Below the pieces are notes generated by a model. The model was not told where the DNA came from. It was given only the letters and a program-made list of their open reading frames with translations, and made no database searches. Of a stretch of DNA of 64,000 nt, positions 11,518 through 37,738 are shown piece after piece. A program made the position numbers and the translations under genes. The stretch is from an uncultured Flavobacteriales bacterium. GTDB taxonomy: Bacteria > Bacteroidota > Bacteroidia > Flavobacteriales > UBA7312. The first letter of the stretch is position 1. Every line of letters starts with the position of its first letter. The stretch lies in assembly GCA_913041085.1 (NCBI GenBank), contig CAJWHN010000001.1, positions 10,992 through 74,991 on the forward strand. Direction: 5' to 3'.

Positions 11518-12909
11518 ATGTCTAAGTCGGTAATTTGTATAGTTTTATTCAGTGTCTTTATCACTTTTTTTGCTGAAGCTCAGCAGGATACAATTATTGA
11601 CAACAAACCTTATGCTATACATGTGGTACAGCCTAGAGAAACGCTGTACGGCATTTCGAGACAATACGATGCAGAGTTAAATGATTTGGTAATATCTAAT
11701 CCAGCAGTAATTCAAGGTTTGCATGTTGGCTTTAAATTATTAGTTCCTTTACGTCATACTATAGTAAGACCTGTTGATAATAACACAATATCACAGTCAA
11801 CAAAGTCTGTCACTTCGGATACTCTTTCCAAAAAAATCAAAAATGATTCGGATTTTCGGATTTCAACTCTTCCAAGCTATGAGCTAGATACTACAAAAAT
11901 TAAAGTGGCTTTATTGTTGCCGTTTTATTTGGATTTTAACGATTCTCTAAAAGTTAATAATAACAACAAGAATCTTATTTATCCCAAGTCCAAAGTAGCC
12001 TTAGATTTTTATTTTGGCTTTCAACTAGCTATTGATAGTTTAACTGAATTGGGATACAACATTGACTTGATGGTATTAGATGTGCCAAACGACTCTGTTT
12101 TTGAATCCATACTTACCTCTAACGTATTATATGATAGGGAATATATTTTTGGGCCAATTTATATTAGGCAGTTTGAAGAATTAGCCAAATTTTATGGGTA
12201 TGATACCGAAAAGAAACTCATTTCTCCTTTGTCTTATATGAGTGTAAAAAATAAGTATTTAAATATTTTTCAATCTGTTCCTTTGTCTTATGTTCAAATT
12301 GATGCTTTAATTGATTATCTTTTACATACCAATAATAGCGATGAATTAATATTACTTGGACAAGATAGAGAAGATGACCTTATTTCATATGCTAAAAAGA
12401 AATTGAGTTTGCAAATAATGAATAGGAGATGTCAAGTATTTACTTTTGATAAAAATCAATTGTCCGATAGGGATTTATTAAAAAGTAAATTAAAGTCTGA
12501 TAAAAATATTATGATTATCCCTTCCAATGACCGCTCGTTTGTGAGTAGGTTGCTACCTACTTTAGGAAGTATGGAGGATACCGTTTTTACCATTTATGGG
12601 CTTAATACATGGAATAGATTCGATAATTTAGATTATTATGATTTGGTGAATCTAAACGTTCATATGCCGTCAATCTTTATGAACGATAATAGTCAGTTTT
12701 ACTCAGATTTCGTTAATAATTATTACCAAAAGTATTTCTCTTATCCAGAAAAGTATGCTTATTCAGCTTATCAACAGTGTCTATACTTTTTATCTAGTGA
12801 ATTCAAAGGTCTTCTCGATTTCAAAACTTTTCCAAATACTTCTTTTCAGTCCAACACTAAATTCAACATTATTCGATTCGTCGATTTCGAGCGGCTTATA
12901 GTGCAATAG
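11518..12909 (+). CDS. LysM domain protein with periplasmic-binding-protein-like (LppC/PBP1) region
   Basis: Signal peptide ending AEA|Q; LysM motif HVVQPRETLYGISRQY; KVALLLPF...ALDFYFGFQLAIDSL; follows guaA as is common in Flavobacteria. Confidence 0.75.
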   Translation: MSKSVICIVLFSVFITFFAEAQQDTIIDNKPYAIHVVQPRETLYGISRQYDAELNDLVISNPAVIQGLHVGFKLLVPLRHTIVRPVDNNTISQSTKSVTSDTLSKKIKNDSDFRISTLPSYELDTTKIKVALLLPFYLDFNDSLKVNNNNKNLIYPKSKVALDFYFGFQLAIDSLTELGYNIDLMVLDVPNDSVFESILTSNVLYDREYIFGPIYIRQFEELAKFYGYDTEKKLISPLSYMSVKNKYLNIFQSVPLSYVQIDALIDYLLHTNNSDELILLGQDREDDLISYAKKKLSLQIMNRRCQVFTFDKNQLSDRDLLKSKLKSDKNIMIIPSNDRSFVSRLLPTLGSMEDTVFTIYGLNTWNRFDNLDYYDLVNLNVHMPSIFMNDNSQFYSDFVNNYYQKYFSYPEKYAYSAYQQCLYFLSSEFKGLLDFKTFPNTSFQSNTKFNIIRFVDFERLIVQ

Positions 12910-12984: not shown

Positions 12985-15900
12985 TTGAGGTATTTAATTT
13001 TAATTGCTTTATTTTTTAGTATTTCTTTTTCAAAGGCTCAAGTATTTACAGGAGCTGGTGGTAATATTCCTGATGCTACATTTTTTGGTCCATCTGCATG
13101 GACTAACTTTTATCTCAATGTAAATTCTATTGGTACAATTGATTGTGATTTAACGGTATGCATAAATATTTCACATAATTATACAGATGATTTAGATATT
13201 AGATTAGTTTCTCCATCTGGAACTATTGTTTATTTATCAACTGATAATGGAGGTTCAGGAAACAATTATGTAGGAACTTGTTTTACTATGGATGCTACTA
13301 CTAATATAACTGCAGGAATTGCACCATTTACTGGAGATTATTTACCTGAGGGTAATTTATCAGCTCTTAATGGTCAAAATGCAAACGGATTATGGCGCTT
13401 ACAAATACGAGATGATGCTTGGTTATTTTCAGGGTCACTAAACTCGTGGTCAATAGATTTTACTTGTGAAGCTGAATGTGAAGAAGGAGAAGAAGTTTAC
13501 ACTCTCAATTTATTTGATTCTTTTGGTGATGGTTGGGATCATGGTACAGGACATTTAGTAACTATTAATGGAGTAGATTATGGTGGATTTGATTTTACTA
13601 CAGGATACTCATTTTCTTATACGATTTGTTTAGATCCAACAGATTGTATAGATTTTTCATTTACAGACGGTGGTCCTTGGGAATATGAATGTTCTTACAG
13701 TCTTGTCAATAACACTGGCGTAACTATTTTTTCTGGAGATCACCAAACAATTGATCAAACTATTGGAGATTGTGCCGTTGCTGGCTGTACAGATTCTGAG
13801 GCTTGTAATTTTGACCCTGACGCTGAAGATGATGATGGTAGTTGTTTTTACTCACCTTTGACAGTCGATGATTGCGAGGTTGTATACTGCGGTTCTGAAG
13901 TAGGTGAACAAGTAGCTAGCCAATATATAGGTACTAATGTCAACTACCTTACAATTGAAATTACGGAAAGTGGTATTATTAATGAGTTGTTTTATGATAT
14001 CAACTGGCATAGTCATGGATGGGGTAATATAAATTTTAACGTAAATAATGCAACAATTGCACTATATGACAATTTTGGTACATTTGTTCAAAATATTGCA
14101 GTAATTGGAAATAATTTGAGTATTTCTACTTATCAGAACTTCACAAATATACTAAATACAAACATTGATGTGTATGCTGGATATTCAATTCAAGTATTTT
14201 TAAATAGTCCTAATTGGGGTGGTGGAACTTGGGAATCTTATGTTAATGAAGCTAATATTTCTTTTACTGTCATTACAGAATCAGTTGATGCAGGAAATGA
14301 TATTCAGGGATACTCACTTTGCTATGATGATCCTCCAATAAATTTATTTAATTTTTTAGGAAATAACGCTAATCAAAATGGTATTTGGTCGCCAACTCTT
14401 TCCGGAGGTTATCTTGGTACATTTGATCCACAAACTAATGAAAGTAATGATTACATCTATACTGTTACTGGCGAATGTTTGACAGATTTTGCTACTATCC
14501 CTATAACCGTAATAGATATAGCAGCTCCTCAAATTACTTCAAGCGAAGATTTTATTTGTTTTGGATCTTCTTCATTAGTTACTTATTCCGTTCCTGCTAA
14601 TCAAGGCTCAAATTATTCATGGTCTGTGAACGGAGGCAACATAGTAGGTTCTTCAACAACTAGTTCTATACAGGTTGATTGGTCAGCAACTCCAGTAAGT
14701 ACAATTTCAAACGCCGTAGTAATAACAGAAACTTTTAATGGCTGTAGTAACAGTTCTTCCATAGATGCTACTATTTGTGCTAACCCTATACCTGCATTAA
14801 GTATTGATAATACTGAAATTTGTTTGGGAGAGTCTATTACTGTAACAGTCAACCAAACTTATAACAATTATGTTTGGACTCCTGCCGAATTACTAAACTC
14901 CAATGTTTACACTCCAAACTCATCTTCAGATAATGAAATATCTGTTACTATTACTGGTGAAGAGGGGTGCTCAACAACCGAGTCTATTGACTTAACAATT
15001 TATGAGAGTCCAATAGTGAATCTCTCTGCTGAAGTTTCTGAAATATGCTTTACTGATTCATTGACGCTTACTTCAAACCCGGGCTATAACGATTATTCAT
15101 GGACACCAGCAACTATAACAGGAAACTCAGATGTCTATTATCCTTCTAATTCATCAGAAGATATGATTTTTCTTACTGTTACTGGAGAGGGTGGATGTAC
15201 AAGTTCTGATTCGCTTGAAATAGTTGTAAATGATTTACCTGTTGTCAACCTAACCATTGACAATTCAGAAATATGTTTAGGTGAATCCCTAATTGTTAAT
15301 ACTAATTCTGGGTATAACAATTACGATTGGACACCTTCAGCAATATCTTCAAATTCATACACCTATGTGCCTACTTCTTTGACAGACAATCAAATTTCTG
15401 TAATAGTTACCTCAGACTTTGGTTGTTCATCTACAGAAACTATTGATTTTACGATTTATGATTTGCCAAGTGTTAACCTATCAATTGATGATACGGATAT
15501 ATGTATCGGAGAGTCTTTAGTGGTGAGTGCTAATTCAGGCTATAACAATTACGTATGGACACCCTCAAGTATTTCTGGCTACACAGATGTCTATTTTCCA
15601 ACCTCATCATCTGAAGATATGATTTCTATAACTGTTACAGGAGAAGGTGGTTGTACAAGTTCTGATTCGTTAGCAATACAAGTTTTTGATTTACCTGTAG
15701 TAAACTTAGGTGTCGATAATTCAGAAATCTGTATTGGAGAAACAATAAGTTTAAACACTAACCCTGGTTACATAAATTATGACTGGTCGCCTTCAACTAT
15801 ATCCTCTAATTCCGATACGTATACCCCTACATCTTTAACAGATAATCAAATCTCAGTGACGATTACGGGAGATGGTGGCTGTATTTCATCAGATAATTTA

Positions 15901-17895
15901 AATTTAACGATTTATGATTTACCTATTGTAAATCTATCAATTGATGATAACTATCTGTGTATGGGTGATTCACTTGTGGTTAGTTCTAATTCGGGCTATG
16001 ACAACTACGCATGGACACCCTCAAGTATTTCAGGAAACACGGATGTCTATTTTCCAACTTCATCATCAATTGATATGATTTCTTTAACTGTAACAGGAGA
16101 TGGTGGTTGTACAACTTCTGATTCGTTAGCAATACAAGTTTTTGATTTACCTATTGTAAACTTAGATGTCGATAATTCAGAAATCTGTATTGGAGAAACA
16201 ATAAGCCTAAACACTAACTCAGGATATATTAACTACGACTGGTTGCCTTCAAGCATATCTTCTAATTCAGATACCTACACTCCCACATCTTTATTAGATA
16301 ATCAATTTTCAGTAACGATTACAGCGGATGGTGGTTGTACTTCTTCGGACTCTTTAGAGCTTACAATTTTTGATTTACCTATTGTTGAAGTTTCACTCTC
16401 TGAAAGTGTGATTTGTTTAGGTGAGTCTATAGCTGTTAATTCCACATCCGGATATGTGAATTACGATTGGACACCAGCTATTTTAAATTCTACAAATCAG
16501 ATAACACCTGAATTAACAGAAACTAATTATTTGGTAGAAGTAACGGATATAAACGGTTGTAAATCTACTGATGATGCCAACCTTGTAATTAATCAGTCAA
16601 CACCAATTGAATTAACAGTTAATGGAAATAACACTACTACAATATGTATTGGAGAAGAAATAGACTTAGTTGCTTCTTTAGGTTTTGATTCATATACATG
16701 GTCAATTCCTAATGTATTATCCAACCAAACTACTTATGTGCCTTCTGACCTAAGTGATAATCAATTCTCAGTAATAGGTACTAACCAATTTGGCTGTAAT
16801 TCAACGTCTGCCTTGAATATTACTATCAACAGTATTCCAACACCAAGTTTAATATCGGTATTTTCTGATAGTGCACAGACAATCCCTCAAAGTATAAACC
16901 TTTGTGCAGGTGTTTCAGATATTAAATTTTCATCTAATATTAGTAGTCCTACTAATCCTGTAGAATGGGTTTTTGTTGATGGTAATGGCGCCATAATAGA
17001 AAATGGTCAAAATACTTCAGAATTGGCAGTTTCATTTCCTATTGTTGAAGATTATATTTTAGAATTCAGAGAGTATGGTTCTCAAAATTGCTTTACTCCT
17101 CAACAAATTGAAATAAAAGTAAATCCTAACCCTGTTCTTGACGTTAGCTATGTTGAAGATTGTTACAAGGACTCTGTATTTTTTACTAATAACTCAAGTG
17201 TTGATACAACGATTCAGAGCGTCTTATGGTCAGTAGATGGCTATAGTTTTAATAGTTACAACTTATCCTATCCACTAGATAATGACAGTAAAGTTTTTGA
17301 GCTTAGCATTGTTGATGTATTAAATTGTTCTTCTTCATTATCCACAAACTTTGTTCCTTCAGATCGTCCTTATGTTGATTTTTATCATGAGCCAGAGAAG
17401 ATTACAATTTTAAACCCTGAGGTTTCTTTCATAAACCTATCTTCGAATGACGATACTATTTTGTGGGATTTTGGTGATAATCAAACTTCAGATGAATGGG
17501 AACCAATTCATACATACGATTCGTTGGGTTGGTTTGAAGTTATTTTGAAAGTTCAAAATAATGAAGGTTGTGCTGATTCTATTGCTAAACAATTACTAGT
17601 TGAAAATAACCTCATATATTATTTCCCAAGTTCATTTACACCAGATGGTGATGGATTAAATGACGAATTTGGAGTGAGTGGATTTAGAATTGATAAAATT
17701 CAAAATTACCAATTCCAAATTACCAACAGATGGGGTGAAATTGTCTTTTATTCTGAGGATGTTAACGCAAAATGGGATGGTAAAACATCTCAAGGTAATG
17801 ACGCTATGCCTGGTAGTTACCTTTGGTCAGTTCGTGTAGTTGATGAACTAGGAAAGGTGACTAGAAAATTTGGAGATTTCACTTTGTTGAGGTAG
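12985..17895 (+). CDS. Large T9SS type-B (CHU_C/gliding-motility CTD) surface protein, adhesin-like (gene A): P-domain, DSxGDGW domain, GCTD repeat, about 9 Ig/PKD-like repeats, PKD, CTD
   Basis: TTG start; signal peptide SKA|Q; proprotein-convertase P-like domain (HNYTDDLDIRLVSPSGT...NGLWRLQIRD); C-terminal FPSSFTPDGDGLNDEF...NRWGEIVF...WDG...GDFTLLR. Confidence 0.88.
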   Translation: MRYLILIALFFSISFSKAQVFTGAGGNIPDATFFGPSAWTNFYLNVNSIGTIDCDLTVCINISHNYTDDLDIRLVSPSGTIVYLSTDNGGSGNNYVGTCFTMDATTNITAGIAPFTGDYLPEGNLSALNGQNANGLWRLQIRDDAWLFSGSLNSWSIDFTCEAECEEGEEVYTLNLFDSFGDGWDHGTGHLVTINGVDYGGFDFTTGYSFSYTICLDPTDCIDFSFTDGGPWEYECSYSLVNNTGVTIFSGDHQTIDQTIGDCAVAGCTDSEACNFDPDAEDDDGSCFYSPLTVDDCEVVYCGSEVGEQVASQYIGTNVNYLTIEITESGIINELFYDINWHSHGWGNINFNVNNATIALYDNFGTFVQNIAVIGNNLSISTYQNFTNILNTNIDVYAGYSIQVFLNSPNWGGGTWESYVNEANISFTVITESVDAGNDIQGYSLCYDDPPINLFNFLGNNANQNGIWSPTLSGGYLGTFDPQTNESNDYIYTVTGECLTDFATIPITVIDIAAPQITSSEDFICFGSSSLVTYSVPANQGSNYSWSVNGGNIVGSSTTSSIQVDWSATPVSTISNAVVITETFNGCSNSSSIDATICANPIPALSIDNTEICLGESITVTVNQTYNNYVWTPAELLNSNVYTPNSSSDNEISVTITGEEGCSTTESIDLTIYESPIVNLSAEVSEICFTDSLTLTSNPGYNDYSWTPATITGNSDVYYPSNSSEDMIFLTVTGEGGCTSSDSLEIVVNDLPVVNLTIDNSEICLGESLIVNTNSGYNNYDWTPSAISSNSYTYVPTSLTDNQISVIVTSDFGCSSTETIDFTIYDLPSVNLSIDDTDICIGESLVVSANSGYNNYVWTPSSISGYTDVYFPTSSSEDMISITVTGEGGCTSSDSLAIQVFDLPVVNLGVDNSEICIGETISLNTNPGYINYDWSPSTISSNSDTYTPTSLTDNQISVTITGDGGCISSDNLNLTIYDLPIVNLSIDDNYLCMGDSLVVSSNSGYDNYAWTPSSISGNTDVYFPTSSSIDMISLTVTGDGGCTTSDSLAIQVFDLPIVNLDVDNSEICIGETISLNTNSGYINYDWLPSSISSNSDTYTPTSLLDNQFSVTITADGGCTSSDSLELTIFDLPIVEVSLSESVICLGESIAVNSTSGYVNYDWTPAILNSTNQITPELTETNYLVEVTDINGCKSTDDANLVINQSTPIELTVNGNNTTTICIGEEIDLVASLGFDSYTWSIPNVLSNQTTYVPSDLSDNQFSVIGTNQFGCNSTSALNITINSIPTPSLISVFSDSAQTIPQSINLCAGVSDIKFSSNISSPTNPVEWVFVDGNGAIIENGQNTSELAVSFPIVEDYILEFREYGSQNCFTPQQIEIKVNPNPVLDVSYVEDCYKDSVFFTNNSSVDTTIQSVLWSVDGYSFNSYNLSYPLDNDSKVFELSIVDVLNCSSSLSTNFVPSDRPYVDFYHEPEKITILNPEVSFINLSSNDDTILWDFGDNQTSDEWEPIHTYDSLGWFEVILKVQNNEGCADSIAKQLLVENNLIYYFPSSFTPDGDGLNDEFGVSGFRIDKIQNYQFQITNRWGEIVFYSEDVNAKWDGKTSQGNDAMPGSYLWSVRVVDELGKVTRKFGDFTLLR
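15010..16377 (+). repeat. Intragenic tandem repeat: 6 x 228 nt (76 aa), alternating types giving 3 x 456 nt
   Basis: Units start at Pro codons 15010, 15238, 15466, 15694, 15922 and 16150, with the next domain at 16378; the string tctgattcgttagcaatacaagtttttgatttacct recurs at 15661 and 16117 (456 nt apart). Confidence 0.95.
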
Positions 17896-17988
17896 TCAAA
17901 AACTTCTTTGAAACATATTTAGTACATTTACGTACAAATGAGTTGTTTTAAACTATTTACAATGCTTTTTAACCTTTAACTAGTTGGT

Positions 17989-19293
17989 TTGAGATATTTA
18001 TTTGCCATATCTATTCTTTGCTTACACATACATTCTTATGCTCAATGTGTGGTAGATGAATCTTATTCTTTAAATCCTGAGGGCCCCTATCAAATTGGTG
18101 ATGTTGTTACTGTGAATTATACTTTGAATAGTTTCTATCAATTAAATACCAATTGGGTTATAGCTTTTCAAATTAATTTAGGTAATGGGTGGACTAATCT
18201 AAATCCAACATCTGCACCAATAAATACCAATATTAACAATGCTTTAGGTAACGGGTATTGGATTTGGGATTTAGAAAATACTTTTCCTAGTGGATTAGAA
18301 TTTGGACCAGGATTTAGATTTATAAACACTAGTTGGGATGACTATTGGTGGCTTCAAGGAAGTCCAAATTGGGGATCGTCTTCAACAGGACCATTATCAT
18401 TTTCCTTTGATGTTACAGTTAATGAATCTTGTACACCTGAGGATCTTTATATTAGTATAAATGTATATGGAGATTGTCAAACTGGTGGTTGGAATAACGG
18501 AGATTGTTGTAGCGATACAGCTCTAGTAAACTATGATGATTCACTTTTTGTTTATTCAAATTTAAATTCAGGATTAGATACTTCGGTGATTTATTGCCAA
18601 GAATCTGGTAACTTCAACCTATTCGATTTATTAGGTGATAATGTGCAAAACGATGGCTTTTGGACTCCGTCACTCGCTCAAGGTTATTTAGGTCAATTTA
18701 ATCCATCGATTAATACGCCACAAGAGTATATTTATACTGTATCGGATGAATGTAATACGGACTCAACTAGCGTTTTCTTAAGTTTAGATAACACAGAAAG
18801 TCAACCAACAGTTGAATTACAATTGTGTGATAACGATACAATTGTAAGTTTATACAACGCTCTAAATCTGAATAATACTTCAGGTATATGGCAAGGAACT
18901 TCTAGTTTAAGTTCTGGCTATCAAGGCTTTTTTAACCCTCAAGAACAACAGATAGGTTTATACACTTATACTGTCTTAAATGAGAATGATTGCCAACAAA
19001 GTTACCCATTGGATGTTTCAATAATTGAAGAAAATATTAATGCTGGAAGCGATTATGAGCTTGAAATATGTATTGATGATCCTGGTGTTAACTTTTATGA
19101 ATTAATCGGTAATCCAGATATAAATGGTATATGGTCACCTTCTTTGAACTCAGGCTATTTTGGTTTTTTTGATCCGTCAGCAAACCTTTCAGGAGATTAT
19201 ACGTACACCCTTTCAGGGGAATGTGATACGTACCAATCTCAAGTTAATGTAAATGTCATTGAAGTTATACCACCACCAATTGTTACGAACTAA
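17989..19293 (+). CDS. Secreted protein (gene B): unique Trp/Gly-rich N-terminal domain plus 3 Ig-like repeats (GxW.P.L..GY.G.F.P); no T9SS CTD
   Basis: TTG start MRYLF (gene A starts MRYLI); signal peptide SYA|Q; third repeat aligns with gene A GIWSPTLSGGYLGTFDP; ends VIEVIPPPIVTN. Confidence 0.82.
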   Translation: MRYLFAISILCLHIHSYAQCVVDESYSLNPEGPYQIGDVVTVNYTLNSFYQLNTNWVIAFQINLGNGWTNLNPTSAPINTNINNALGNGYWIWDLENTFPSGLEFGPGFRFINTSWDDYWWLQGSPNWGSSSTGPLSFSFDVTVNESCTPEDLYISINVYGDCQTGGWNNGDCCSDTALVNYDDSLFVYSNLNSGLDTSVIYCQESGNFNLFDLLGDNVQNDGFWTPSLAQGYLGQFNPSINTPQEYIYTVSDECNTDSTSVFLSLDNTESQPTVELQLCDNDTIVSLYNALNLNNTSGIWQGTSSLSSGYQGFFNPQEQQIGLYTYTVLNENDCQQSYPLDVSIIEENINAGSDYELEICIDDPGVNFYELIGNPDINGIWSPSLNSGYFGFFDPSANLSGDYTYTLSGECDTYQSQVNVNVIEVIPPPIVTN

Positions 19294-19325
19294 AAATTAA
19301 AACTACTTAACTAAACTATTTCATT

Positions 19326-20357
19326 ATGAAAAATTGTATAAATATTCTATTAACTGCTTTTATATCATTAACGGTTTCAATGGCTACTTATGCTCAAATT
19401 GACACCTTATGCCTTGGTTCTACTCTAGAAAATTATTCTATTATACCTAACGCAGGTTCTACCTACTCTTGGAGTGTTTCAGGAGGTGGAATCATAATAG
19501 GCTCTAATACTGGTACTTCTATTCAAGTAGATTGGTCTAATGCGCCTTTAGGCTTAATAAATAATGCTATTACATTGACCGAACAACTTAACGGTTGTGA
19601 AGCTGATCAGACTTTAAGTGTAGAAATTTTAGAAAACCCTACACCTAATTTATCTGCTTCAGATTTGTCCATTTGTTTAGGTGAATCAGTATTGTTATCT
19701 GCTGATGCTGGTTATGATACATACAATTGGACTCCTTCATCACTATCTGGTGCTTCATCTACATACACTCCAAATGCTATTACTGATGATACTTTTGAGG
19801 TTGAGGTCATTGGTGAAGGAGGCTGTTCTACAACAGAGAGTATTGAAATAGAAATTTTTGAACTTCCATCAGTTGAGGTTTCACTTTCTGATAGTACCAT
19901 TTGTTTAGGAGAGTCTATCACAGTTAGTGCAACCTCAGGCTTTACTACTTATACTTGGACTAATTCATCACTTTCTAGTGATCAAACTACTTTAACGCCT
20001 ACTTTGGTCGACACTGAATATAGCGTAAGCATTACCGATGTTAATGGCTGTGAAGCGTCAGATGATGTTACTCTAACAATTAATGAAATTAACCCTATTG
20101 AGCTATTAGTTAATGGGGCTGAAACCACTACTATCTGTTTAGGGGAAACTATCTCTCTTGATGCTACTGATGGATTTAGTTCGTATGTATGGGTTCCTGC
20201 TGTGGTAATTGGTGATAATGGTAACTATGTTCCTCAAAATACTTCTGAAACATCATACACAGTGACATCAACTGATTCAGAGGGTTGTCAATCTGTTGAT
20301 ACTATTAACATTACTATCAATAATTTACCTAATCCAGGCCCAATTATTTTTAACTAA
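19326..20357 (+). CDS. Secreted protein (gene C): 4 PKD/Ig-like domains paralogous to the stalk of gene A; no T9SS CTD
   Basis: Signal peptide TYA|Q; YSWSVSGGGIIIGS...SIQVDWS matches A YSWSVNGGNIVGS...SIQVDWS; ICLGES repeats; ends NITINNLPNPGPIIFN. Confidence 0.85.
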   Translation: MKNCINILLTAFISLTVSMATYAQIDTLCLGSTLENYSIIPNAGSTYSWSVSGGGIIIGSNTGTSIQVDWSNAPLGLINNAITLTEQLNGCEADQTLSVEILENPTPNLSASDLSICLGESVLLSADAGYDTYNWTPSSLSGASSTYTPNAITDDTFEVEVIGEGGCSTTESIEIEIFELPSVEVSLSDSTICLGESITVSATSGFTTYTWTNSSLSSDQTTLTPTLVDTEYSVSITDVNGCEASDDVTLTINEINPIELLVNGAETTTICLGETISLDATDGFSSYVWVPAVVIGDNGNYVPQNTSETSYTVTSTDSEGCQSVDTINITINNLPNPGPIIFN

Positions 20358-20362
20358 TCAGA

Positions 20363-21424
20363 ATGCATAGAGTACTTATACTTTTCTTTTTAAAGTTAAG
20401 TGTTCTAGGATATTGTCAAAATCTTCAAATCTGTCTTAGCGATAGCCTAGAATACTTTTCTGTTGTACCGAGCTCATCAACAAATTCGCTTGAATGGGAG
20501 TTTGTTTATGGAGATGGTGCAGAAATTGTCGATGGGCAATTTTCGGATAGTATAAGTGTTCTTTTTTCCAACCCTGGAGATTATATTTTACAATTGCGAG
20601 AGTTCGGCTCAACCAATTGTTTTACATCAGTAGAAATGAATATTTCGGTAAACCCTAATCCTTTAGCTAGTTTTTTTAGTGATGAGATTTGTATTTACGA
20701 TTCTGTTAAATTTATCAATACTTCTATTTCTAGTGATGGTTTACAATCTTCTATTTGGCGTATTGGTGATGATATAATCGATGCTATTGATTTGAATTAT
20801 ACCTTTAATGAGGAAGGCGAGTACCTTATAGAATTGTCTGTTGTCAGTAATTTAGGATGTTCTGATATGGAGTCTTTGTTCTTTAAGCTTTCTGATAAAC
20901 CAATTGCTGATTTTTATCATTTTCCTGAGAAAATCACTACGCTAAACCCTATAGTTGAATTTGTGAATTTATCAACAGAGGGTTTTGTTAATTGGGATTT
21001 TGGTGATGACTTTTACTCTAATGAATGGCAACCAATTCATTATTTTGATTTAGCAGCTTGGTACGATGTGCAATTGACCTTAGAAGATGAAAACGGTTGC
21101 ACAGACTCTATTACGAAGAGTTTATTAGTTGAAAGTGAGCTTATTTTTTACTTGCCTACATCTTTTACCCCAGATGGAGATGGCATAAACGATGATTTTG
21201 GCATAAAAGGATTCAATATCGATAGGGTGCAAGAGTTTTCTATGGTTATAACTAATAGATGGGGCGAAATTATATTTAATGTAGATGATATTAATCAAAG
21301 GTGGAATGGCGAGAACCAAGTTGGAAATTTAGCAATGCCAGGCACTTATTTATGGTCTGTTCGTATTAAAGATGAATTAGGTAAGCAGACTAGGCAAATA
21401 GGAGAAGTTACTCTGTTGAGGTAA
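20363..21424 (+). CDS. T9SS type-B CTD protein with PKD domains (gene D), paralog of the C-terminal roughly 350 aa of gene A
   Basis: Signal peptide GYC|Q; WDFGDD PKD motif; LPTSFTPDGDGINDDFG...NRWGEIIF...GEVTLLR. Confidence 0.88.
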   Translation: MHRVLILFFLKLSVLGYCQNLQICLSDSLEYFSVVPSSSTNSLEWEFVYGDGAEIVDGQFSDSISVLFSNPGDYILQLREFGSTNCFTSVEMNISVNPNPLASFFSDEICIYDSVKFINTSISSDGLQSSIWRIGDDIIDAIDLNYTFNEEGEYLIELSVVSNLGCSDMESLFFKLSDKPIADFYHFPEKITTLNPIVEFVNLSTEGFVNWDFGDDFYSNEWQPIHYFDLAAWYDVQLTLEDENGCTDSITKSLLVESELIFYLPTSFTPDGDGINDDFGIKGFNIDRVQEFSMVITNRWGEIIFNVDDINQRWNGENQVGNLAMPGTYLWSVRIKDELGKQTRQIGEVTLLR

Positions 21425-22042
21425 TTATCTTAAATCAATAACATCTACATTAGGGTAGTCAGCAGTTTTAAACAAAAAAAAATTGTTATTCATTTCTTTA
21501 TTTGTTACAAATGAATCAATAACGTATTTAAAGTGGCTACCTTGTTTGTCAATCATAGTAAATGAGCTGATTTGCATCTTAGATTTGTTTATGAATAACT
21601 CCACTTTTGTAAAAGGACCACTTTCTTCAGGAAATAAATCGATGTGGTAGTTTTTACCATCTTCTCTCACAAATTTATACTTGTATCCATTTTCATAAAT
21701 AGTAAAAATTTTAGATGGGTTTAATTCATTTTCTTCATCATCAATTTCTGTAATATTTACTTCTTCTTCATCTGGAAGGTAAATCCAATTTGTTTCTCCA
21801 TCGCAAATGATTGTTTGCGCTTCCATTTCTAGCCTATATGCATCGTCTTTAAGATATAGTGTTCCACTTTGCGACTCATTAATATCTGTTACCGTACTAG
21901 AAAAGGTATTAGTAAATTTTGCCTCTATTGAGGTGTATGATTTGGTCTTATCACTTAGTTGGTCTAAAATAGTTTTGGCTTTTTGGTCTTGTGCAAAGAT
22001 TACACAAGGAAAGAGAAATAGGAAATAAATTAGCTTTTTCAT
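21425..22042 (-). CDS. lolA: Outer-membrane lipoprotein carrier LolA family protein
   Basis: Signal peptide IFA|Q; GTLYLKDDAYRL, DGETNWIYLPDEEEVNI, NPSKIFTIY; immediately downstream of ftsK. Confidence 0.85.
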   Translation of the reverse strand: MKKLIYFLFLFPCVIFAQDQKAKTILDQLSDKTKSYTSIEAKFTNTFSSTVTDINESQSGTLYLKDDAYRLEMEAQTIICDGETNWIYLPDEEEVNITEIDDEENELNPSKIFTIYENGYKYKFVREDGKNYHIDLFPEESGPFTKVELFINKSKMQISSFTMIDKQGSHFKYVIDSFVTNKEMNNNFFLFKTADYPNVDVIDLR

Positions 22043-31786: not shown

Positions 31787-33673
31787 ATGAAAAACCTCCT
31801 TATTCTTTTATTATTTACCCCTTTTGTGCTATTATCACAGAATACCCCAAAAGCCAAAAAAGCCTATGCCAAAGCTGTAGAGTTTTATCAAGAGAGTAAC
31901 GATAAAAAAGCCAAAGAATTGGTTCAGTCGGCTATACGACAAGATGCCAACTATTTACCTTCCTATTTGCTGTTGGGTCAGCTCGAGGAAGAAGGTGGTA
32001 ATATAGAATCGGCAATTGATAATTACTTAAAAGGTATTTCAGATAATAATCCCGATAATGCTTGGGGTTATTGGAAAGTAGGCATGTTATACATGCAAAT
32101 ACCAAACTATGTAGAAGCTCAACGAGCGTTCAATCATTTTTTAAGCTTTAAATATCAAAAATCAAAAAAAATAGAGTCTGCCAGAAAAGAACTCAAAAAT
32201 TGCGAATTTTCTATTGATGCTATAGCTAACCCTAAGCCTTTTGACTTTAAGAATATGGGCGATGGTATCAATAGTGAATGGGAAGAGTATTTACCTAGTG
32301 TTTCTGCCGATGGCAAGTTATTCGTTATTACTAGGAGAGGTCCACATCAAAACAATGTTGTTTCAGAAGATTTTTATCAGAGTGAATATCTAAACGGTAA
32401 GTGGACAAAAGCTCAAAATATGGGGGCATCGGTCAATACAATGGGTAATGAAGGAGCTCAGTGTTTAGCACCTAATGGAAAGCTTTTGTTTTTTACTGCT
32501 TGTGACCGTGACGATGGCTTAGGTCGTTGTGATATATATATCAGTATAAAGAGAAATGGACAATGGTCAGAAGCTAGAAATATAGGACCTACTATCAACA
32601 GTAAATATTGGGAATCACAGCCTACCATTTCACCTGATGGTAGAGAACTTTATTTTGTGAGCAACAGACCAGGAGGCTATGGCGATATGGATATATGGAA
32701 AAGTGTACTTTCTGAGCAAGGCACCTTTTCTACACCTGTCAATTTGGGGTCTACTATCAACACCCCATACGATGAAATGTCACCCTTTATACATACCGAT
32801 AACCATACCTTATATTTTGCCTCTAATGGACACCCCGGTTTAGGCGATTTTGATTTGTTTTTAAGTCGTAGAGATTATCCTGTCGCTAGTTGGCAAAACC
32901 CCATTAACTTAGGTTATCCTATCAATACACTAGGTGTAGAGAATAGTCTTATTGTAGCTTCAGACGGCAAAACAGCATACTTCGCATCTGATAAATCGGG
33001 TTACGGTCAAGAAGACATTTTCTGGTTTCATCTACCTCAAGAAATGCAATCTCAACAAGTAGCTTATCTCAATACTAAGGTTTATGATGCCGAAACCAAA
33101 ACACCTATGAAATCAAGTATTGAAATCATTGACTTAGCTACTGGCAAAGTGATGATATCGTCATTTACATATACCAAGACGGGAGAATTTTTTACTTGCT
33201 TACCAGCCAACACCAATTATGCCGTTAATGTTTCTAAAGACGGTTATTTGTTTCATTCGGAAAATTTTGTCTTAAATGAGCAAAGTGCATTACAAGCACT
33301 GAAGTTAGATATACCATTGCAACGACTCAATAAAGGAAGTAAGATTGTATTGAATAATATTTTCTTTGATACCGATGCTTACACGCTAAAAACCGAATCT
33401 GAGGTAGAACTCAATACCTTAGTTAATTTTATGAATAATAATGCGAGTCTTGAAGTAGAGATAGAAGGACACACCGATAATGTAGGTTCAGAATCGCATA
33501 ACCTTAAACTTTCAGAAAGCAGAGCCAAAGCCGTTTATGATTTTCTAGTAGAAAATGGCATAAGTGCCAACAGAATGACTTTCAAAGGCTTTGGAGCAAG
33601 TCAGCCCATTGCTACTAACGAAACAGACGAGGGTAGAGCTACCAACAGAAGAACGGCTTTTAGGGTGAAGTGA
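31787..33673 (+). CDS. OmpA-family protein with TPR, PD40/WD40 propeller and carboxypeptidase-regulatory-like domains (PorE-like architecture)
   Basis: Signal peptide LLS|Q; PD40 repeats (ESQPTISPDGRELYFVSNR); OmpA-C motifs IEGHTDNVG...LSESRA...NRR. Confidence 0.88.
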   Translation: MKNLLILLLFTPFVLLSQNTPKAKKAYAKAVEFYQESNDKKAKELVQSAIRQDANYLPSYLLLGQLEEEGGNIESAIDNYLKGISDNNPDNAWGYWKVGMLYMQIPNYVEAQRAFNHFLSFKYQKSKKIESARKELKNCEFSIDAIANPKPFDFKNMGDGINSEWEEYLPSVSADGKLFVITRRGPHQNNVVSEDFYQSEYLNGKWTKAQNMGASVNTMGNEGAQCLAPNGKLLFFTACDRDDGLGRCDIYISIKRNGQWSEARNIGPTINSKYWESQPTISPDGRELYFVSNRPGGYGDMDIWKSVLSEQGTFSTPVNLGSTINTPYDEMSPFIHTDNHTLYFASNGHPGLGDFDLFLSRRDYPVASWQNPINLGYPINTLGVENSLIVASDGKTAYFASDKSGYGQEDIFWFHLPQEMQSQQVAYLNTKVYDAETKTPMKSSIEIIDLATGKVMISSFTYTKTGEFFTCLPANTNYAVNVSKDGYLFHSENFVLNEQSALQALKLDIPLQRLNKGSKIVLNNIFFDTDAYTLKTESEVELNTLVNFMNNNASLEVEIEGHTDNVGSESHNLKLSESRAKAVYDFLVENGISANRMTFKGFGASQPIATNETDEGRATNRRTAFRVK

Positions 33674-34524: not shown

Positions 34525-35694
34525 TTATTTACTGCTCGAAAATACTCTTTTTATACCAATACCTATATGAAGACCATAGCTTACAGATGGAATACCAGCA
34601 TTAAACTGTTTGGTGTAAATGTGGAAATGGGTTTTTTCTCCACCATAAAGGTAGCTGAATTGAAAACCATTATGCTCAACACCTCCAATATGATAGCCTA
34701 ATGCCAAACGATGGTTTTTCATTTTTTTATGAACTTCTAAAGTCAGTTTTGGAACATCATAAAGGTTCATTCGGTGTTCAATGGATAGGGAGTAGCCTTG
34801 AATTATTGAATTGTATAAAGCCTGATTTATACATAGTCTAAAGATAGTAGGAAGTTGCCAAGTATAGCTTTCCTTTATATTACTTTGTAAATCCGATTGT
34901 AGGCTATCTATTTCATTTCTGATGATGCTATCGCTAAAGCTGATAAAGTCATTAACATTGATTCCTTCAAATTCATACTGACTTTCAATATGCATATTAC
35001 TAGTCTTATCGTTCCATCTAATAAATCCTAAATCACTTATTGACAATTCTATTTCTCCATTATTAATACTGTCTTTATAGCTCATCCCAAAAACTGCGCC
35101 ATAACCCTTGTTCCCAAAAGGTTTTTGTAATAAATCTGTTGTGTCTGTGAAGTGAGCTTCATAATCCACTTGATAATTAATGAAAGCAGCTTGAGGGTGG
35201 GTGTAAAAACGAGCTTCATTGACAGTAGCATCTAGAAAATGATGTCCCAAAAGTAGCCCTACACTCGTTTGTATTTTTTTACTCCATTGATATGAAAAGT
35301 CTAGTTGTGAGTAGTTAAAAGCAGTAATATCTAATGGATCTAGTTTAAGGTTTTCACCCTTGAATGGAGTGTTTCCCAACAGGCTCAATTCGACTAATGA
35401 TTTTGAGTAGGTGGCGTATGCTCCTGTATGGTTAGATAAACTCAGTCCCCAACCTTTTTTATTTTGATAAAGAATAGCGTTATTACTTTCAAAGGCAATA
35501 TTATTTTCTGCTTTTAAAGCGTCTATGATATTGCTCTTTTCAACCTCATCTAAAAAGCCATAGGACTGTGACAGTAATTGGGCGTTTATGCTACTGTTAA
35601 ACAAACCAATATCTGTATTAAACTCTAATGAGCTTTCTTGCGAATAGGCCGATAAAGTAAGAGCCACTAAGAAAATCGAAAAATACTTTGGCAT
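34525..35694 (-). CDS. Predicted outer-membrane beta-barrel, DUF5723-like (minus strand)
   Basis: CAT at 35692-35694; signal peptide AYS|Q; amphipathic strands; GYGAVFGMSY...SISDLGFIRW motif recalled as typical of DUF5723; TAATG overlap with the upstream lipoprotein gene. Confidence 0.7.
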   Translation of the reverse strand: MPKYFSIFLVALTLSAYSQESSLEFNTDIGLFNSSINAQLLSQSYGFLDEVEKSNIIDALKAENNIAFESNNAILYQNKKGWGLSLSNHTGAYATYSKSLVELSLLGNTPFKGENLKLDPLDITAFNYSQLDFSYQWSKKIQTSVGLLLGHHFLDATVNEARFYTHPQAAFINYQVDYEAHFTDTTDLLQKPFGNKGYGAVFGMSYKDSINNGEIELSISDLGFIRWNDKTSNMHIESQYEFEGINVNDFISFSDSIIRNEIDSLQSDLQSNIKESYTWQLPTIFRLCINQALYNSIIQGYSLSIEHRMNLYDVPKLTLEVHKKMKNHRLALGYHIGGVEHNGFQFSYLYGGEKTHFHIYTKQFNAGIPSVSYGLHIGIGIKRVFSSSK

Positions 35695-37730
35695 TATTCT
35701 ACGTTATGATTGAAGTTAGTAACGAGTTTTAAATCCATCGCATAGTTACTGTATATAGTGACGAATTGGTTTGATGGCTGTGTATTGAGAGTGACTTCAA
35801 AAGCTATCTTTTTACATAGTGATAAACTTTCGCTGATATTGTTGAAAGCGAAGGTCAATTCACTAGAGGTGCTAGAAATAGTTTTGCCATTAGTATCGAC
35901 TTCACTAGCTTGAACGATTTGTTCAGAAAGAAGACTTTCTAATACCATATTATTTTGGTCTAGCAAATACATTTTTATTTCAGCATCGATAGGGTAGCTG
36001 TTTTGTGCTAGTAGAGTAAAGGAAGCCTGTTCAATATTGTCTATTGAAAAAGAAACATCTACCGTATCTTTTAAGCTAATGTTTGAGCCAGAAAAGGATA
36101 AGGGTATTTCAATTTGCAGCTCTGATTTTACACCGTAGTTTTTGAATAAAAAACCATCATCTTGATTGTCATCAGGATTGAGTAATAGCTCAAAATCGAC
36201 AGCTAGGGTATGGGGTTTATTTTCTATGAGTTCGTCTATGTTAGAATTTACTTCATCAAATACTACCGTACTAGTGTTAGGAGTTACTTCTTGGTTAGAG
36301 TTGGGGTTTTCTGTAGCTGAACCAATAGAGATAGGAGAGGATAGCACATCGCTATTCAATACAATTTCATTTTGTTCACTTGTACTTTTGAAAGTATTAA
36401 TACGCACATCTGCCTTAGCACCAATGGAGTTTTCAGTCAATAGTTTCACTTCGATATGTTCTAAATCAAACTGTCCGCTGAAATCTGAAAAATCGCCAAA
36501 ATCTAATTCTTGACTTTCATTGATGGTATCTTTACCCATATACCCCCAAGCTTTTTCAGGAATTATTTCCTTAATGGTAATAGTATTAAATACGCTATCT
36601 TCTAGTGAAATGTGAGTGACAACGCCTGATGAGTCAATCCAACCCCTAGATTCGGTGTATATGGTATTAATGGTATCCCCCAATTTACCTGTCATATCTA
36701 TTTCGTATCCAGAAAAGTCGAAAAGTTTGGTCTCAGTAATTGAGCCGCCTTCAGGAGCTGGGGGTAGTTCAAAATAAAATTCAAAAGGCTGACCATTTAA
36801 AGTAGTTCCGGGTATTTTATATTCAATCTTTAGGGTGTCTTGTATGGTGCTTACGCCTATAACTTCTACACCACCTTCTGCCACCAACACTCTTTTTAGT
36901 TTAACGTCTCCAATATCAAAGGCTACGACAGTATCTTCATCAAAAATTTCTTGACTAGGAAAAACAGCAATTCCCTCTTGGAGTTCGATATCACGTATTA
37001 CGATTTTAGCTGTTAGAGCATCGCTATAATCAATAGTTACAGGGTTGGGTGCTGTTCCCACAATATCGGCACTAATTATCTCAGCCTCTAGATTGCCGAA
37101 TAAAGTCTGACCAGCTAAAGATTCTGTGGTTGTCTCACTTTCTCCACTAGGCAGTACGGGAATATTCATCGTAATAATGTTGTTAGTTTCTCCCTCATTA
37201 CGAAGTTCTATAACGACATTACTCAAATCGGTAGGCAGTCCATTTTCAATAGTCAAATCTAGGTATCCATCGGTGAAGGTCATTTCTTCAAAATAGTCGT
37301 TAGCATCAATAGGAAAGGTCTCATTGAGCAAGTCTGAATAGGCAGGGATAACTGCTGTGCCACCATCAGGAAATAAAATCGTGCCAAAATCTATTGAGGA
37401 GATTAAGTTTCCCATAGTTATGGAATGAGTGACCGTTGTATTTGAAAAATTGATGGTCTCCAGCTTAACATTTTTAGTCGTGCTGATGGGTCTTAAATGA
37501 ATCAGACTATCGAAATTATAGTTGATAATTTCTTTTTGATAAATAAATTTTAAGCTATTATCACTTAGTGTATCAAATTGTATGATACTATCCTTAACAA
37601 TATCCGTAAGATTTAAAGTAGTATAAGCTATAGGTGTACTAATGTCAGTATCCCAAGTGGGTTTTTCAAAATCGTGGCGACATGAAAATAGGATACATAG
37701 AAGTAAAAGGTATGGGAGAGTGTATTTCAT
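35694..37730 (-). CDS. Large beta-rich lipoprotein (hypothetical); start revised to ATG 37730
   Basis: MKYTLPYLLLLCILFSC lipobox; PTWDTD...P motif; TAAATTTG promoter box 8 nt upstream of the revised ATG. Confidence 0.75.
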   Translation of the reverse strand: MKYTLPYLLLLCILFSCRHDFEKPTWDTDISTPIAYTTLNLTDIVKDSIIQFDTLSDNSLKFIYQKEIINYNFDSLIHLRPISTTKNVKLETINFSNTTVTHSITMGNLISSIDFGTILFPDGGTAVIPAYSDLLNETFPIDANDYFEEMTFTDGYLDLTIENGLPTDLSNVVIELRNEGETNNIITMNIPVLPSGESETTTESLAGQTLFGNLEAEIISADIVGTAPNPVTIDYSDALTAKIVIRDIELQEGIAVFPSQEIFDEDTVVAFDIGDVKLKRVLVAEGGVEVIGVSTIQDTLKIEYKIPGTTLNGQPFEFYFELPPAPEGGSITETKLFDFSGYEIDMTGKLGDTINTIYTESRGWIDSSGVVTHISLEDSVFNTITIKEIIPEKAWGYMGKDTINESQELDFGDFSDFSGQFDLEHIEVKLLTENSIGAKADVRINTFKSTSEQNEIVLNSDVLSSPISIGSATENPNSNQEVTPNTSTVVFDEVNSNIDELIENKPHTLAVDFELLLNPDDNQDDGFLFKNYGVKSELQIEIPLSFSGSNISLKDTVDVSFSIDNIEQASFTLLAQNSYPIDAEIKMYLLDQNNMVLESLLSEQIVQASEVDTNGKTISSTSSELTFAFNNISESLSLCKKIAFEVTLNTQPSNQFVTIYSNYAMDLKLVTNFNHNVE

Positions 37731-37738
37731 TCTAATGG

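What the first reader, a model, noticed from the sequence alone, without database searches (positions are those of the whole stretch)
12985..21424. A full-length T9SS adhesin followed by a collinear three-piece split version of itself
Seen: B+C+D, in gene order, reproduce the domain order of A. B's third repeat (GIWSPSLNSGYFGFFDP...YTYTLSGEC) matches A's GIWSPTLSGGYLGTFDP...YIYTVTGEC. C matches A's stalk (YSWSV.GG.I.GS...SIQVDWS, ICLGES repeats, PIEL.VNG..TTTIC.GE). D matches A's last roughly 350 aa (REF/YGS.NCFT...VNPNP, DFYH.PEKIT.LNP, FTPDGDG, AMPG.YLWSVR..DELGK). Each of the four genes has its own signal peptide with Gln at +1, the usual Bacteroidota pattern. Inference: the locus encodes one single-chain and one multi-subunit form of the same surface filament. 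I do not recognise this as a described system.
Basis: partly seen in the sequence, partly recalled or inferred. Interest (0 to 1): 0.85.

Follow-up and report, generated by a model that had tools for sequence, protein, structure and literature searches.

The report
Adhesin split into three secreted subunits
A marine Flavobacteriales genome encodes a long surface adhesin as one chain and, next to it, a related adhesin as three separately exported proteins of which only the last carries the secretion and anchoring signal, so the pieces probably have to join before they reach the cell surface.

Summary
B (17989-19293), C (19326-20357) and D (20363-21424), in gene order, match A (12985-17895) collinearly. 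Each has a signal peptide with Gln at +1. Only A and D carry a type B T9SS C-terminal domain.

The split is not an artefact or decay:
- The exact C protein sits in the same layout in over 20 independent metagenome assemblies.
- The B-C-D triplet is syntenic in 10 related loci, down to about 45% B identity.
- dN/dS is 0.11-0.18 (nearest relatives), like neighbouring housekeeping genes.
- The frames upstream of C and D are full of stops.

The same slot holds two-piece and other three-piece sets in relatives, so multi-piece adhesins are the rule in this clade. A rooted tree nests A's anchor module among split anchors, so A is more likely a secondary fusion than the parent.

Both breaks fall inside an Ig/PKD-like domain, between the first strand and the conserved Cys. 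C's tail PNPGPIIFN is near-invariant and aligns with the PKD strand A (P-x-A-x-F) of intact relatives.

Best reading, inferred and not shown: the pieces join head-to-tail by strand complementation in the periplasm and are exported through D's signal. I found no description of this. It is a new variant of T9SS adhesins.

The parts
12985..17895 (+). Gene A: single-chain type B CTD adhesin, 1636 aa, TTG start. Order: signal peptide, P_proprotein tip, unknown domain, one GIWSP-type repeat, PKD_6, about 10 Ig_7 domains, PKD-like domains, CHU_C.
   Evidence: Orthologues in L015, L016, L017 and L027.
12985..13038 (+). A signal peptide, MRYLILIALFFSISFSKA|Q.
   Evidence: Read from the sequence. Q-rule: PMC5837995.
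13150..13461 (+). A tip: proprotein convertase P-domain (aa 56-159). B has no counterpart.
   Evidence: PF01483, 51.8 bits against a cutoff of 21.
14257..14541 (+). A aa 425-519: the single GIWSP-type repeat, which matches B's last repeat.
   Evidence: 41% identity, E 1e-19.
14524..14556 (+). Fused junction 1 in A (..APQITSSEDFIC..). It corresponds to B's tail PPPIVTN plus mature C's start QIDTLC, with no extra residues.
15080..16385 (+). Tandem 456-bp (two Ig_7 domains) repeat, 2.9 copies at 78% match. This is the stalk expansion that C lacks.
16834..16887 (+). Fused junction 2 in A (..PTPSLISVF-SDSAQTIP-QSINLC..). It is the equivalent of C's tail plus about 10 extra, poorly conserved, low-pLDDT residues where the stop codon and signal peptide sit in C/D.
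16888..17892 (+). A aa 1302-1636: the anchor module homologous to mature D (49% identity).
17626..17892 (+). A type B T9SS C-terminal domain.
   Evidence: PF13585 52.1 bits; TIGR04131 37.4 bits against a cutoff of 35.
17989..19293 (+). Gene B: the 'tip' subunit, 434 aa, TTG start. Order: signal peptide (17989-18042), conserved N-terminal beta-sandwich domain, three GIWSP-type repeats. No CTD.
   Evidence: dN/dS 0.13-0.16.
19270..19290 (+). B C-terminal tail PPPIVTN. It is the equivalent of the first strand of the PKD_6 domain whose remainder opens mature C.
19326..20357 (+). Gene C: the 'stalk' subunit, 343 aa. Order: signal peptide (19326-19394), PKD_6 domain missing about 11 N-terminal profile positions, three Ig_7 domains. 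No CTD.
   Evidence: dN/dS 0.11-0.17.
20328..20354 (+). C C-terminal tail PNPGPIIFN, near-invariant across the family. It aligns with the canonical PKD strand A (P-x-A-x-F) of intact single-chain relatives.
20363..21424 (+). Gene D: the 'anchor' subunit, 353 aa. Order: signal peptide (20363-20416), N-terminally truncated PKD_6-like domain, PKD-like domains, type B CTD (21152-21421).
   Evidence: dN/dS 0.14-0.18.
11518..12909 (+). Conserved upstream neighbour: a 463-aa secreted protein with a LysM-like N-terminus and no Pfam hit. It borders the adhesin slot in every related locus.
21425..22042 (-). lolA, the conserved downstream border of the slot. No PorP/SprF-like gene follows A or D.

Best explanation
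B, C and D are three real, separately translated and separately Sec-exported subunits of one T9SS surface adhesin. B is the distal tip, C the Ig-domain stalk, and D the anchor. D carries the only type B C-terminal sorting domain.

Each gene boundary cuts an Ig/PKD-like domain between its first beta-strand and the rest. The strand stays as the C-terminal tail of the upstream subunit (B: PPPIVTN; C: PNPGPIIFN). The downstream subunit's mature N-terminus, a Gln after signal-peptide cleavage, begins 4-5 residues before the conserved Cys.

The proposed mechanism is inferred, not shown. After export and signal-peptide removal, the tail of B completes the first domain of C and the tail of C completes the first domain of D. 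This is strand complementation in trans. The resulting B-C-D complex is then recognised through D's CTD, carried across the outer membrane by the T9SS as a folded complex, and held on the surface like other 'orphan' type B substrates.

Gene A is a paralogous single-chain form with a different tip and an expanded stalk. It most likely arose by re-fusion of such a multi-piece set. In this clade of uncultured marine Flavobacteriales the slot between the LysM-like gene and lolA is a variable cassette, holding two-piece, three-piece and single-chain versions.
For: Real genes:
- The exact C protein occurs in at least 23 independent assemblies (TARA/ENA, JGI, Logan). In every one of the 10 places shown, C and D follow in the same order; B precedes C and lolA follows D wherever the contig reaches that far.
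- The triplet is syntenic in 10 loci with B identity down to 45% and GuaA identity down to 79%.
- dN/dS against L015/L016 is B 0.13/0.16, C 0.17/0.11, D 0.18/0.14. The controls are LolA 0.23/0.12 and FtsK 0.15/0.08.
- Upstream of the C and D start codons, their frames hold 4 and 7 stops within about 40 codons.
- Stand-alone families have fixed lengths: B 405-439 aa, plus 577-596 aa forms with extra repeats; C 339-350 aa; D 353-357 aa.
- Every full-length family member seen has a signal peptide followed by Gln.

One machine:
- Fused and split forms of the same module order coexist, which is Rosetta-stone logic. They are A, three-piece sets in L012, L027, L028 and L029, and a two-piece set in L030/L031.
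- Gaps between the genes are short: 32 nt and 5 nt here, and 0 nt or overlapping elsewhere.
- No terminator-like site lies between the genes.

Break inside a domain:
- The Pfam PKD_6 profile starts at position 5 in A (P515) but at position 12-13 at the first mature residues of C, D and five D-family members.
- Adding the upstream tail in silico extends the match to position 9 (B tail plus C) and position 6 (C tail plus D).
- In 13 of 16 distant single-chain relatives, the residues just before D's Q19 equivalent are the PKD strand A motif P-x-A-x-F. Examples are VPQADF|SNTHAC and SPVADF|LFTEVC, against C tail PGPIIFN | QNLQIC.

Tail under constraint:
- C's last nine residues score 0.95 conservation, in the top 1.2% of windows in C.
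- About 40 family clusters at 48-99% identity all end in P-x-P-G-P-I-[IL]-[FY]-N, with one variant.
- B's tail is unstructured in the AlphaFold model of B alone (pLDDT about 65).

T9SS present: the window holds a plug protein and two type A CTD proteins.

Fusion direction: in a tree rooted on 9 distant single chains, A's anchor clade sits inside a 99% clade with split anchors. The two-piece anchors and the outer D clade branch earlier. A's junction 2 carries about 10 extra, variable, low-confidence residues exactly where the stop codon and signal peptide would be.
Against: - No experimental data exist on expression, localisation or interaction.
- No case of a CTD-less protein exported by riding on a T9SS substrate turned up in the literature I searched.
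- The AlphaFold model of A across junction 2 had pLDDT below 50 there. Only a 3-residue strand appeared at the tail-equivalent, so the docking of that strand is not shown.
- The in-silico tail addition raised Pfam scores by only 1-2 bits.
- B's tail is no more conserved than the rest of B at the identity level.
- A first strand at the edge of a sheet gives weaker complementation than the core G strand donated in chaperone-usher pili.
- The tree is neighbour-joining on one module, and several backbone nodes have low support.
Confidence: 0.6

Rival explanations
1. B and C are independent periplasmic or outer-membrane accessory proteins. They share Ig-type domains with adhesins but do not join D. 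Only D, a short adhesin, and A are displayed. The operon would then resemble sprC-sprD-sprB-sprF, where upstream genes support the adhesin without being part of it.
For: - B and C have no sorting domain.
- No T9SS piggyback precedent was found.
- The junction model was low-confidence.
Against: - B, C and D are collinear with single chains.
- The same boundaries recur in two-piece and three-piece sets.
- The near-invariant tail matches the missing strand of the next gene's first domain.
- C consists of stalk-type Ig domains only, with no other recognisable function.
Confidence: 0.2
2. A keeps the ancestral single-chain state. B-C-D, and the other multi-piece sets, descend from a duplicate of an A-like gene that broke apart.
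For: - Across the wider database, D-like modules almost always sit at the end of giant single chains, so a fission must have happened at some depth.
- Backbone nodes of the module tree are weakly supported.
Against: - Relatives that lack A still have B-C-D.
- The A anchor clade nests at 99% with split anchors, after the two-piece and outer D lineages branch off.
- A as ancestor would need three or more independent fissions at the same residue.
- A's junction 2 has an insertion-like linker.
Confidence: 0.3
3. B, C and D are fragments of a decaying paralogue (a pseudogene), or products of assembly or sequencing error.
For: - The three ORFs lie in three frames with short gaps.
- Error-type breaks do occur in relatives assembled from long reads (L011 LysM-like gene and D end; L029 tip).
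Against: - The layout is the same in at least 23 independent assemblies and 10 diverged loci.
- dN/dS is 0.11-0.18 against the nearest relatives (L015/L016).
- Each piece has its own start codon and signal peptide, whereas the error-type breaks have none.
- The upstream frames are closed by many stops.
Confidence: 0.02
4. Programmed frameshifting or readthrough joins B, C and D into one chain during translation.
For: Short intergenic gaps.
Against: - Multiple stops lie in the target frames upstream of each start codon.
- Fused products would carry internal hydrophobic signal peptides.
- The gaps vary in length and sequence among orthologues.
Confidence: 0.01

Closest known systems
Type B CTD T9SS adhesins (SprB, Fjoh_3952, and the 'orphan' substrates Fjoh_1123/1720/4934 of Flavobacterium johnsoniae; PMC12618676, PMC9143113)
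   Same: - A and D have a Sec signal peptide plus a C-terminal TIGR04131/CHU_C domain above the curated cutoffs.
- They have an Ig/PKD repeat body.
- No porP/sprF-like gene lies next to them, as with the 'orphan' substrates that share one shuttle.
   Different: Known substrates are single polypeptides. Here the body is spread over two or three genes, and only the last one has the signal. B and C on their own do not qualify as T9SS substrates.
GhpA grappling-hook protein of Aureispira (PDB 9flw, 9flp and others)
   Same: It is the best structural match to both models, a chain of Ig-like domains from a Bacteroidota surface filament (Foldseek E 6.7e-15 and 3.7e-08).
   Different: - GhpA is a single giant chain. 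That it oligomerises is from my own knowledge.
- Sequence identity is only 13-16%.
- Nothing indicates a gene-level split.
Donor-strand assembly in type V pili (FimA/Mfa1) and chaperone-usher pili
   Same: An Ig-like subunit that lacks one strand is completed by a terminal extension of the neighbouring subunit. In type V pili the donor is C-terminal and the missing strand is N-terminal (PMC4789730, and my own knowledge), the same polarity as proposed here.
   Different: - Pilins are lipoprotein precursors or usher-dependent and polymerise indefinitely.
- Here a fixed 1:1:1 order is implied, the missing strand is absent genetically rather than removed by a protease, export would go through the T9SS, and the fold family is PKD/Ig_7.
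- Complementation here has not been demonstrated.
Hitchhiker or complex export in other folded-protein pathways (Tat PaoABC, PMC4273604; T2SS complexes, PMC9251779)
   Same: Subunits without a signal travel with a partner that has one. The T9SS also moves folded proteins (PMC9251779).
   Different: This has not been described for the T9SS. Here all subunits reach the periplasm through their own Sec signals, and only the outer-membrane step would be shared.
sprC-sprD-sprB-sprF operon of F. johnsoniae (PMC3021240, cited in PMC12635249)
   Same: CTD-less envelope proteins are encoded upstream of a type B CTD adhesin and needed for its function.
   Different: To my knowledge SprC and SprD are not collinear pieces of SprB. 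A porP/sprF gene follows sprB, and none follows D.

Membership tests
T9SS type B CTD substrate (A and D) | C-terminal TIGR04131 / PF13585 (CHU_C) domain above the curated cutoff | tested here: met
   A: TIGR04131 37.4 bits against 35, PF13585 52.1 against 27. D: 41.3 against 35, 56.8 against 27.
T9SS type B CTD substrate (A and D) | N-terminal Sec signal peptide | tested here: met
   Read from the sequence: MRYLILIALFFSISFSKA|Q and MHRVLILFFLKLSVLGYC|Q, conserved in orthologues. No dedicated predictor was available.
T9SS type B CTD substrate (A and D) | Cognate porP/sprF-like shuttle gene directly downstream | tested here: not met
   B follows A, and lolA on the opposite strand follows D. This is the 'orphan' condition described in PMC12618676, so it does not exclude membership.
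T9SS type B CTD substrate (A and D) | T9SS machinery in the same genome | tested here: inconclusive
   The window holds a T9SS plug protein (PF17116, 56450-57835) and two type A CTD proteins. The core genes (sprA/sov, gldKLMN, porV) are not in the window and were not searched.
T9SS substrate (B and C) | Any recognised C-terminal sorting domain (type A PF18962 / TIGR04183, or type B) | tested here: not met
   No hit at E up to 0.01 in Pfam or NCBIfam. The family members all end in the short P-x-P-I tail.
Donor-strand-complemented fibre (pilus-like assembly) | Subunit domain lacks a strand that the neighbouring subunit's terminal extension supplies | tested here: inconclusive
   - At sequence level this is met: profile truncation, alignment with the intact PKD strand A in 13 of 16 relatives, and a conserved tail.
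- It is not shown structurally. The junction in the AF2 model had pLDDT below 50, and a multimer prediction was not possible.
Donor-strand-complemented fibre (pilus-like assembly) | Dedicated chaperone/usher, or lipoprotein pilin precursors with protease maturation | tested here: not met
   No such genes lie in the slot in any locus. The signal peptides are SPI-type with Gln at +1, not lipoboxes.
Pseudogene / split by error | Relaxed selection, breaks without start codons or signals, intact ORF in relatives | tested here: not met
   dN/dS 0.11-0.18 against the nearest relatives, each piece has its own signal peptide, and the split is conserved in 10 loci.

The most novel reading that the evidence does not exclude
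The T9SS can export a pre-assembled heteromeric cargo. CTD-less subunits B and C lock onto the CTD-bearing subunit D in the periplasm through trans-complementation of a genetically split PKD/Ig domain, then cross the outer membrane as passengers. This would be a modular, pilus-like way to build T9SS adhesins, in which tips and stalks can be swapped as separate genes.
Probability: 0.45. Interest if true: 0.8.

Novelty: new variant of a known kind. Interest (0 to 1): 0.66.

Why it matters
T9SS cargo recognition is understood as one protein carrying one C-terminal signal. A conserved family in which most of the adhesin mass is encoded without that signal would have three consequences if the pieces do travel together.
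- The translocon accepts non-covalent complexes.
- Many 'hypothetical' CTD-less Ig-repeat proteins next to short CTD genes are misread in surveys of T9SS substrates.
- Marine Flavobacteriales can change adhesin tips by swapping a gene rather than remodelling one giant ORF.

The fused and split forms occur side by side, and the split site is a defined 7-9-residue tail. That makes the idea directly testable and offers a possible natural split-domain tag. The organisms are uncultured, so the tests would have to be heterologous.

Tried and rejected
- AlphaFold2 of A 1205-1636, to see whether the tail-equivalent docks as strand A. The anchor part was confident, but the junction had pLDDT below 50 because only 4 near-identical sequences covered it. 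The result is inconclusive.
- AlphaFold2 of B plus Foldseek, to name the tip function. It returned only generic Ig-array matches, with GhpA the best bacterial hit, and no ligand clue.
- The sigma-70 promoter scan is at chance level and does not suit Bacteroidota promoters. It found no terminators between the genes.
- L001's apparently shorter B is a 100-N scaffold gap, not a variant.
- The apparent 'four-piece' set in L029 is a long-read assembly frameshift, because the extra piece has no signal peptide.
- I considered an isopeptide (SpyTag-like) link through the terminal Asn and rejected it. The first domains of C and D contain no Lys (read from the sequences).
- I considered B as a lipoprotein (..YAQC) and rejected it. 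Gln at -1 is not a lipobox, and one orthologue has ..AQNC.
- The exhaustive HMMER search with D was swamped by giant multi-PKD proteins. It was useful only as a source of outgroups and for the ancestral junction motif.
- P0145 (L032) is an unrelated context and was dropped.
Full report
**1. What is there**

Four ORFs lie head to tail on the + strand:

| Gene | Coordinates | Length | Start |
|---|---|---|---|
| A | 12985-17895 | 1636 aa | TTG |
| B | 17989-19293 | 434 aa | TTG |
| C | 19326-20357 | 343 aa | ATG |
| D | 20363-21424 | 353 aa | ATG |

- B 341-433 matches A 425-519 (41% identity, E 1e-19).
- C 26-340 matches the start of A's stalk, 522-828 (38%), and C 90-340 matches its end, 1041-1290 (46%, E 5e-70).
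- D 19-353 matches A 1302-1636 (49%, E 4e-102).

Pfam and NCBIfam give these domains:
- A: P_proprotein, PKD_6, Ig_7 repeats, PKD and a type B T9SS C-terminal domain (CHU_C/TIGR04131).
- C: PKD_6 plus Ig_7.
- D: PKD plus the type B CTD.
- B: nothing.

B and C therefore have no sorting domain. A's longer stalk includes a 456-bp tandem unit (two Ig_7 domains, 2.9 copies). B's first roughly 190 residues are a different tip domain from A's.

All four proteins begin with a signal-peptide-like segment followed by Gln, the Bacteroidota pattern described in PMC5837995. I read these by eye, because no predictor was available.

**2. The split is neither an artefact nor decay**

- The exact C protein is carried by at least 23 independent contigs from TARA/ENA, JGI and Logan assemblies. 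In the 10 places shown, C is always followed by D; B precedes C and lolA follows D wherever the contig reaches that far.
- Searches with B, C and D find stand-alone families of nearly constant length. B is 405-439 aa, with 577-596 aa forms that carry two extra repeats. C is 339-350 aa. D is 353-357 aa. Identities run from about 99% down to 41-48%.
- In 10 loci from related uncultured Flavobacteriales / 'Cryomorphaceae' MAGs the order is always BshC, GuaA, LysM-like gene | adhesin slot | lolA(-), ftsK(-). B, C and D have the same boundaries, signal peptides and tails in all of them.
- Nei-Gojobori dN/dS against the two nearest relatives is 0.13/0.16 for B, 0.17/0.11 for C and 0.18/0.14 for D. 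LolA gives 0.23/0.12 and FtsK 0.15/0.08.
- In the frames of C and D, the 40 codons before each ATG hold 4 and 7 stops, so there is no recent frameshift.
- Real error-type breaks are visible in two long-read assemblies: the LysM-like gene and the end of D in L011, and the tip gene in L029. Those fragments have no signal peptide.
- L001's 'short B' is a run of 100 N.

**3. The slot is a cassette of multi-piece adhesins**

| Locus | Content of the slot |
|---|---|
| L011, L014, L018, L019, L020 | B-C-D only, no A |
| L012 | A second three-piece set (459 + 206 + 356 aa) where the window has A; its tip has A's P_proprotein domain |
| L028 | Only such a three-piece set (494 + 201 + 354 aa) |
| L027 | A three-piece set followed by a 1480-aa single-chain A orthologue |
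| L030, L031 | A two-piece set (447 + 425 aa) |

Every piece has its own signal peptide followed by Gln. Every non-terminal piece ends in a P-x-P-...-I-x-x-[ND/FW] tail. Multi-piece sets are thus the common form in this clade, and the single chain is the minority form.

**4. Which came first**

An exhaustive HMMER search shows that across the wider database the D-like module normally sits at the C-terminus of giant single chains of 1.3-7.4 thousand residues. A fission must therefore have occurred at some depth.

I built a neighbour-joining tree of the anchor module (334 columns, 300 bootstraps) and rooted it on nine such distant single chains.
- The two-piece anchors branch first.
- The outer D clade (L014, L018, L019 and database relatives) branches next.
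- A clade with 99% support follows. It contains A's C-terminal module (itself 100% monophyletic, including L027), the inner D clade and the anchors of the other three-piece sets (the unrooted version is).

A as ancestor would need at least three independent fissions at the same residue. A as a re-fusion needs one event.

The junctions agree with re-fusion. A's junction 2 (PTPSLISVF-SDSAQTIP-QSINLC) carries about 10 extra residues. They differ in L027's orthologue and are modelled with pLDDT below 50, exactly where the stop codon and signal peptide sit in C/D.

I put the fusion direction at about 0.65. The method is simple, it covers one module only, and some backbone nodes are weak.

**5. Where the genes are cut**

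- The Pfam PKD_6 profile aligns to A from profile position 5 at P515, so it includes APQITSS. In C, D and five D-family proteins it starts at profile position 12-13 (10 in one of them), on the first residues after the predicted cleavage site.
- Pasting the upstream tail in front of the mature protein extends the match to position 9 (B tail plus C, 34.3 to 35.4 bits) and position 6 (C tail plus D, 15.9 to 17.6 bits). That gain is small.
- The clearer evidence comes from intact relatives. In 13 of 16 distant single chains, the residues just before the equivalent of D's first mature residue are the canonical first strand of a PKD domain, P-x-A-x-F. Examples are VPQADF|SNTHAC, SPVADF|LFTEVC and KPTANF|SSANVC. 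They line up with C's tail and D's start, PGPIIFN | QNLQIC.
- The same pattern recurs in A's own internal Ig_7 repeats (LPVVNL...ICLGES).
- C's last nine residues are among the most conserved in the protein (0.95, top 1.2% of windows). They are essentially invariant (P-x-P-G-P-I-[IL]-[FY]-N) in about 40 family clusters down to 48% identity.
- B's tail keeps its motif (P-[PS]-[PS]-I-[IVL]-x-[ND]) but is only averagely conserved. It is unstructured in the model of B alone.

**6. Mechanism proposed**

Shown:
- There are three conserved, selected genes, each with a Sec signal.
- Only the last has a T9SS signal.
- The cuts fall between the first strand and the rest of an Ig/PKD-like domain.
- The tail is conserved.
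- Fused homologues exist.
- T9SS parts are present in the window: a plug protein at 56450-57835 and two type A CTD proteins at 39067-41717.

Inferred:
- After export and signal-peptide cleavage, the tails complete the next subunit's first domain.
- This gives a B-C-D complex in the order of the genes.
- D's CTD takes the complex through the T9SS, which is known to move folded proteins (PMC9251779).
- The complex stays on the surface through a PorP/SprF-type shuttle encoded elsewhere, as shown for 'orphan' type B substrates in F. johnsoniae (PMC12618676).

B would be the distal tip. Its N-terminal domain also heads other repeat proteins that carry SprB-repeat and GEVED domains. What it binds is unknown.

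**7. Comparison with what is known**

- A and D pass the sequence tests for type B CTD substrates. B and C do not.
- The best structural matches for both models are fragments of GhpA, the Aureispira grappling-hook protein, another Ig-chain surface filament of a Bacteroidota.
- The proposed joining resembles donor-strand assembly in type V and chaperone-usher pili, but uses none of their machinery.
- It also resembles hitchhiker export in the Tat pathway.
- Full-text searches for T9SS with 'donor strand', piggyback/hitchhiking, 'gene fission', 'split gene' or 'strand complementation' returned only type V pilus papers and general reviews. The library does not cover subscription journals, so absence is not proof.

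**8. Verdict**

The 'one filament' idea is well motivated but unproven.

I class this as a new variant of a known kind: T9SS type B adhesins encoded as several subunits cut inside a domain. Interest is 0.66. It would rise sharply if co-export were demonstrated.

Noticed in passing
window 45594-46691 and 46682-48748 (+): A TPR-repeat ORF overlaps by 10 nt with a PD40 + OmpA ORF. Together they resemble the domain order of the T9SS component PorE (TPR, beta-propeller, OmpA_C-like), here as two ORFs. A second PD40-OmpA protein lies at 31787-33673.
   Followed up: partly
window 56450-57835 (-), 39067-40188 (-), 40191-41717 (-): A T9SS plug protein (PF17116) and two type A CTD (Por_Secre_tail) proteins, one of them a glucose/sorbosone dehydrogenase. 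These show the organism has a T9SS.
   Followed up: partly
window 11518-12909 (+): A 463-aa secreted protein with a LysM-like N-terminal motif and no Pfam hit. It always lies immediately upstream of the adhesin slot in all related loci (40-72% identity), so it may be functionally linked.
   Followed up: no
window 12985 and 17989: A and B both start with TTG and share the opening MRYL. Gene callers often start B at a downstream GTG and so drop its signal peptide (414-aa models).
   Followed up: yes
window 15080-16385: A 456-bp tandem repeat (two Ig_7 domains, 2.9 copies, 78% match) inside A. The stalk length probably varies, since A orthologues are 1480-1636 aa.
   Followed up: partly
L011 8493-9886 and 12352-13398; L029 5189-8331: Long-read ('pilon') assemblies show frameshift-type breaks in the LysM-like gene, the end of D and a tip gene. 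None has a signal peptide, which makes them a useful contrast with the genuine splits.
   Followed up: yes
L014 / L019 / L020 B genes (596 aa): B orthologues in the outer clade carry five rather than three GIWSP-type repeats, while C and D keep their lengths. The tip subunit therefore varies by repeat number.
   Followed up: partly
window 34525-35694 (-) and 35694-37751 (-): A DUF5723 protein next to a 685-aa ORF with no Pfam hit. I did not examine them.
   Followed up: no
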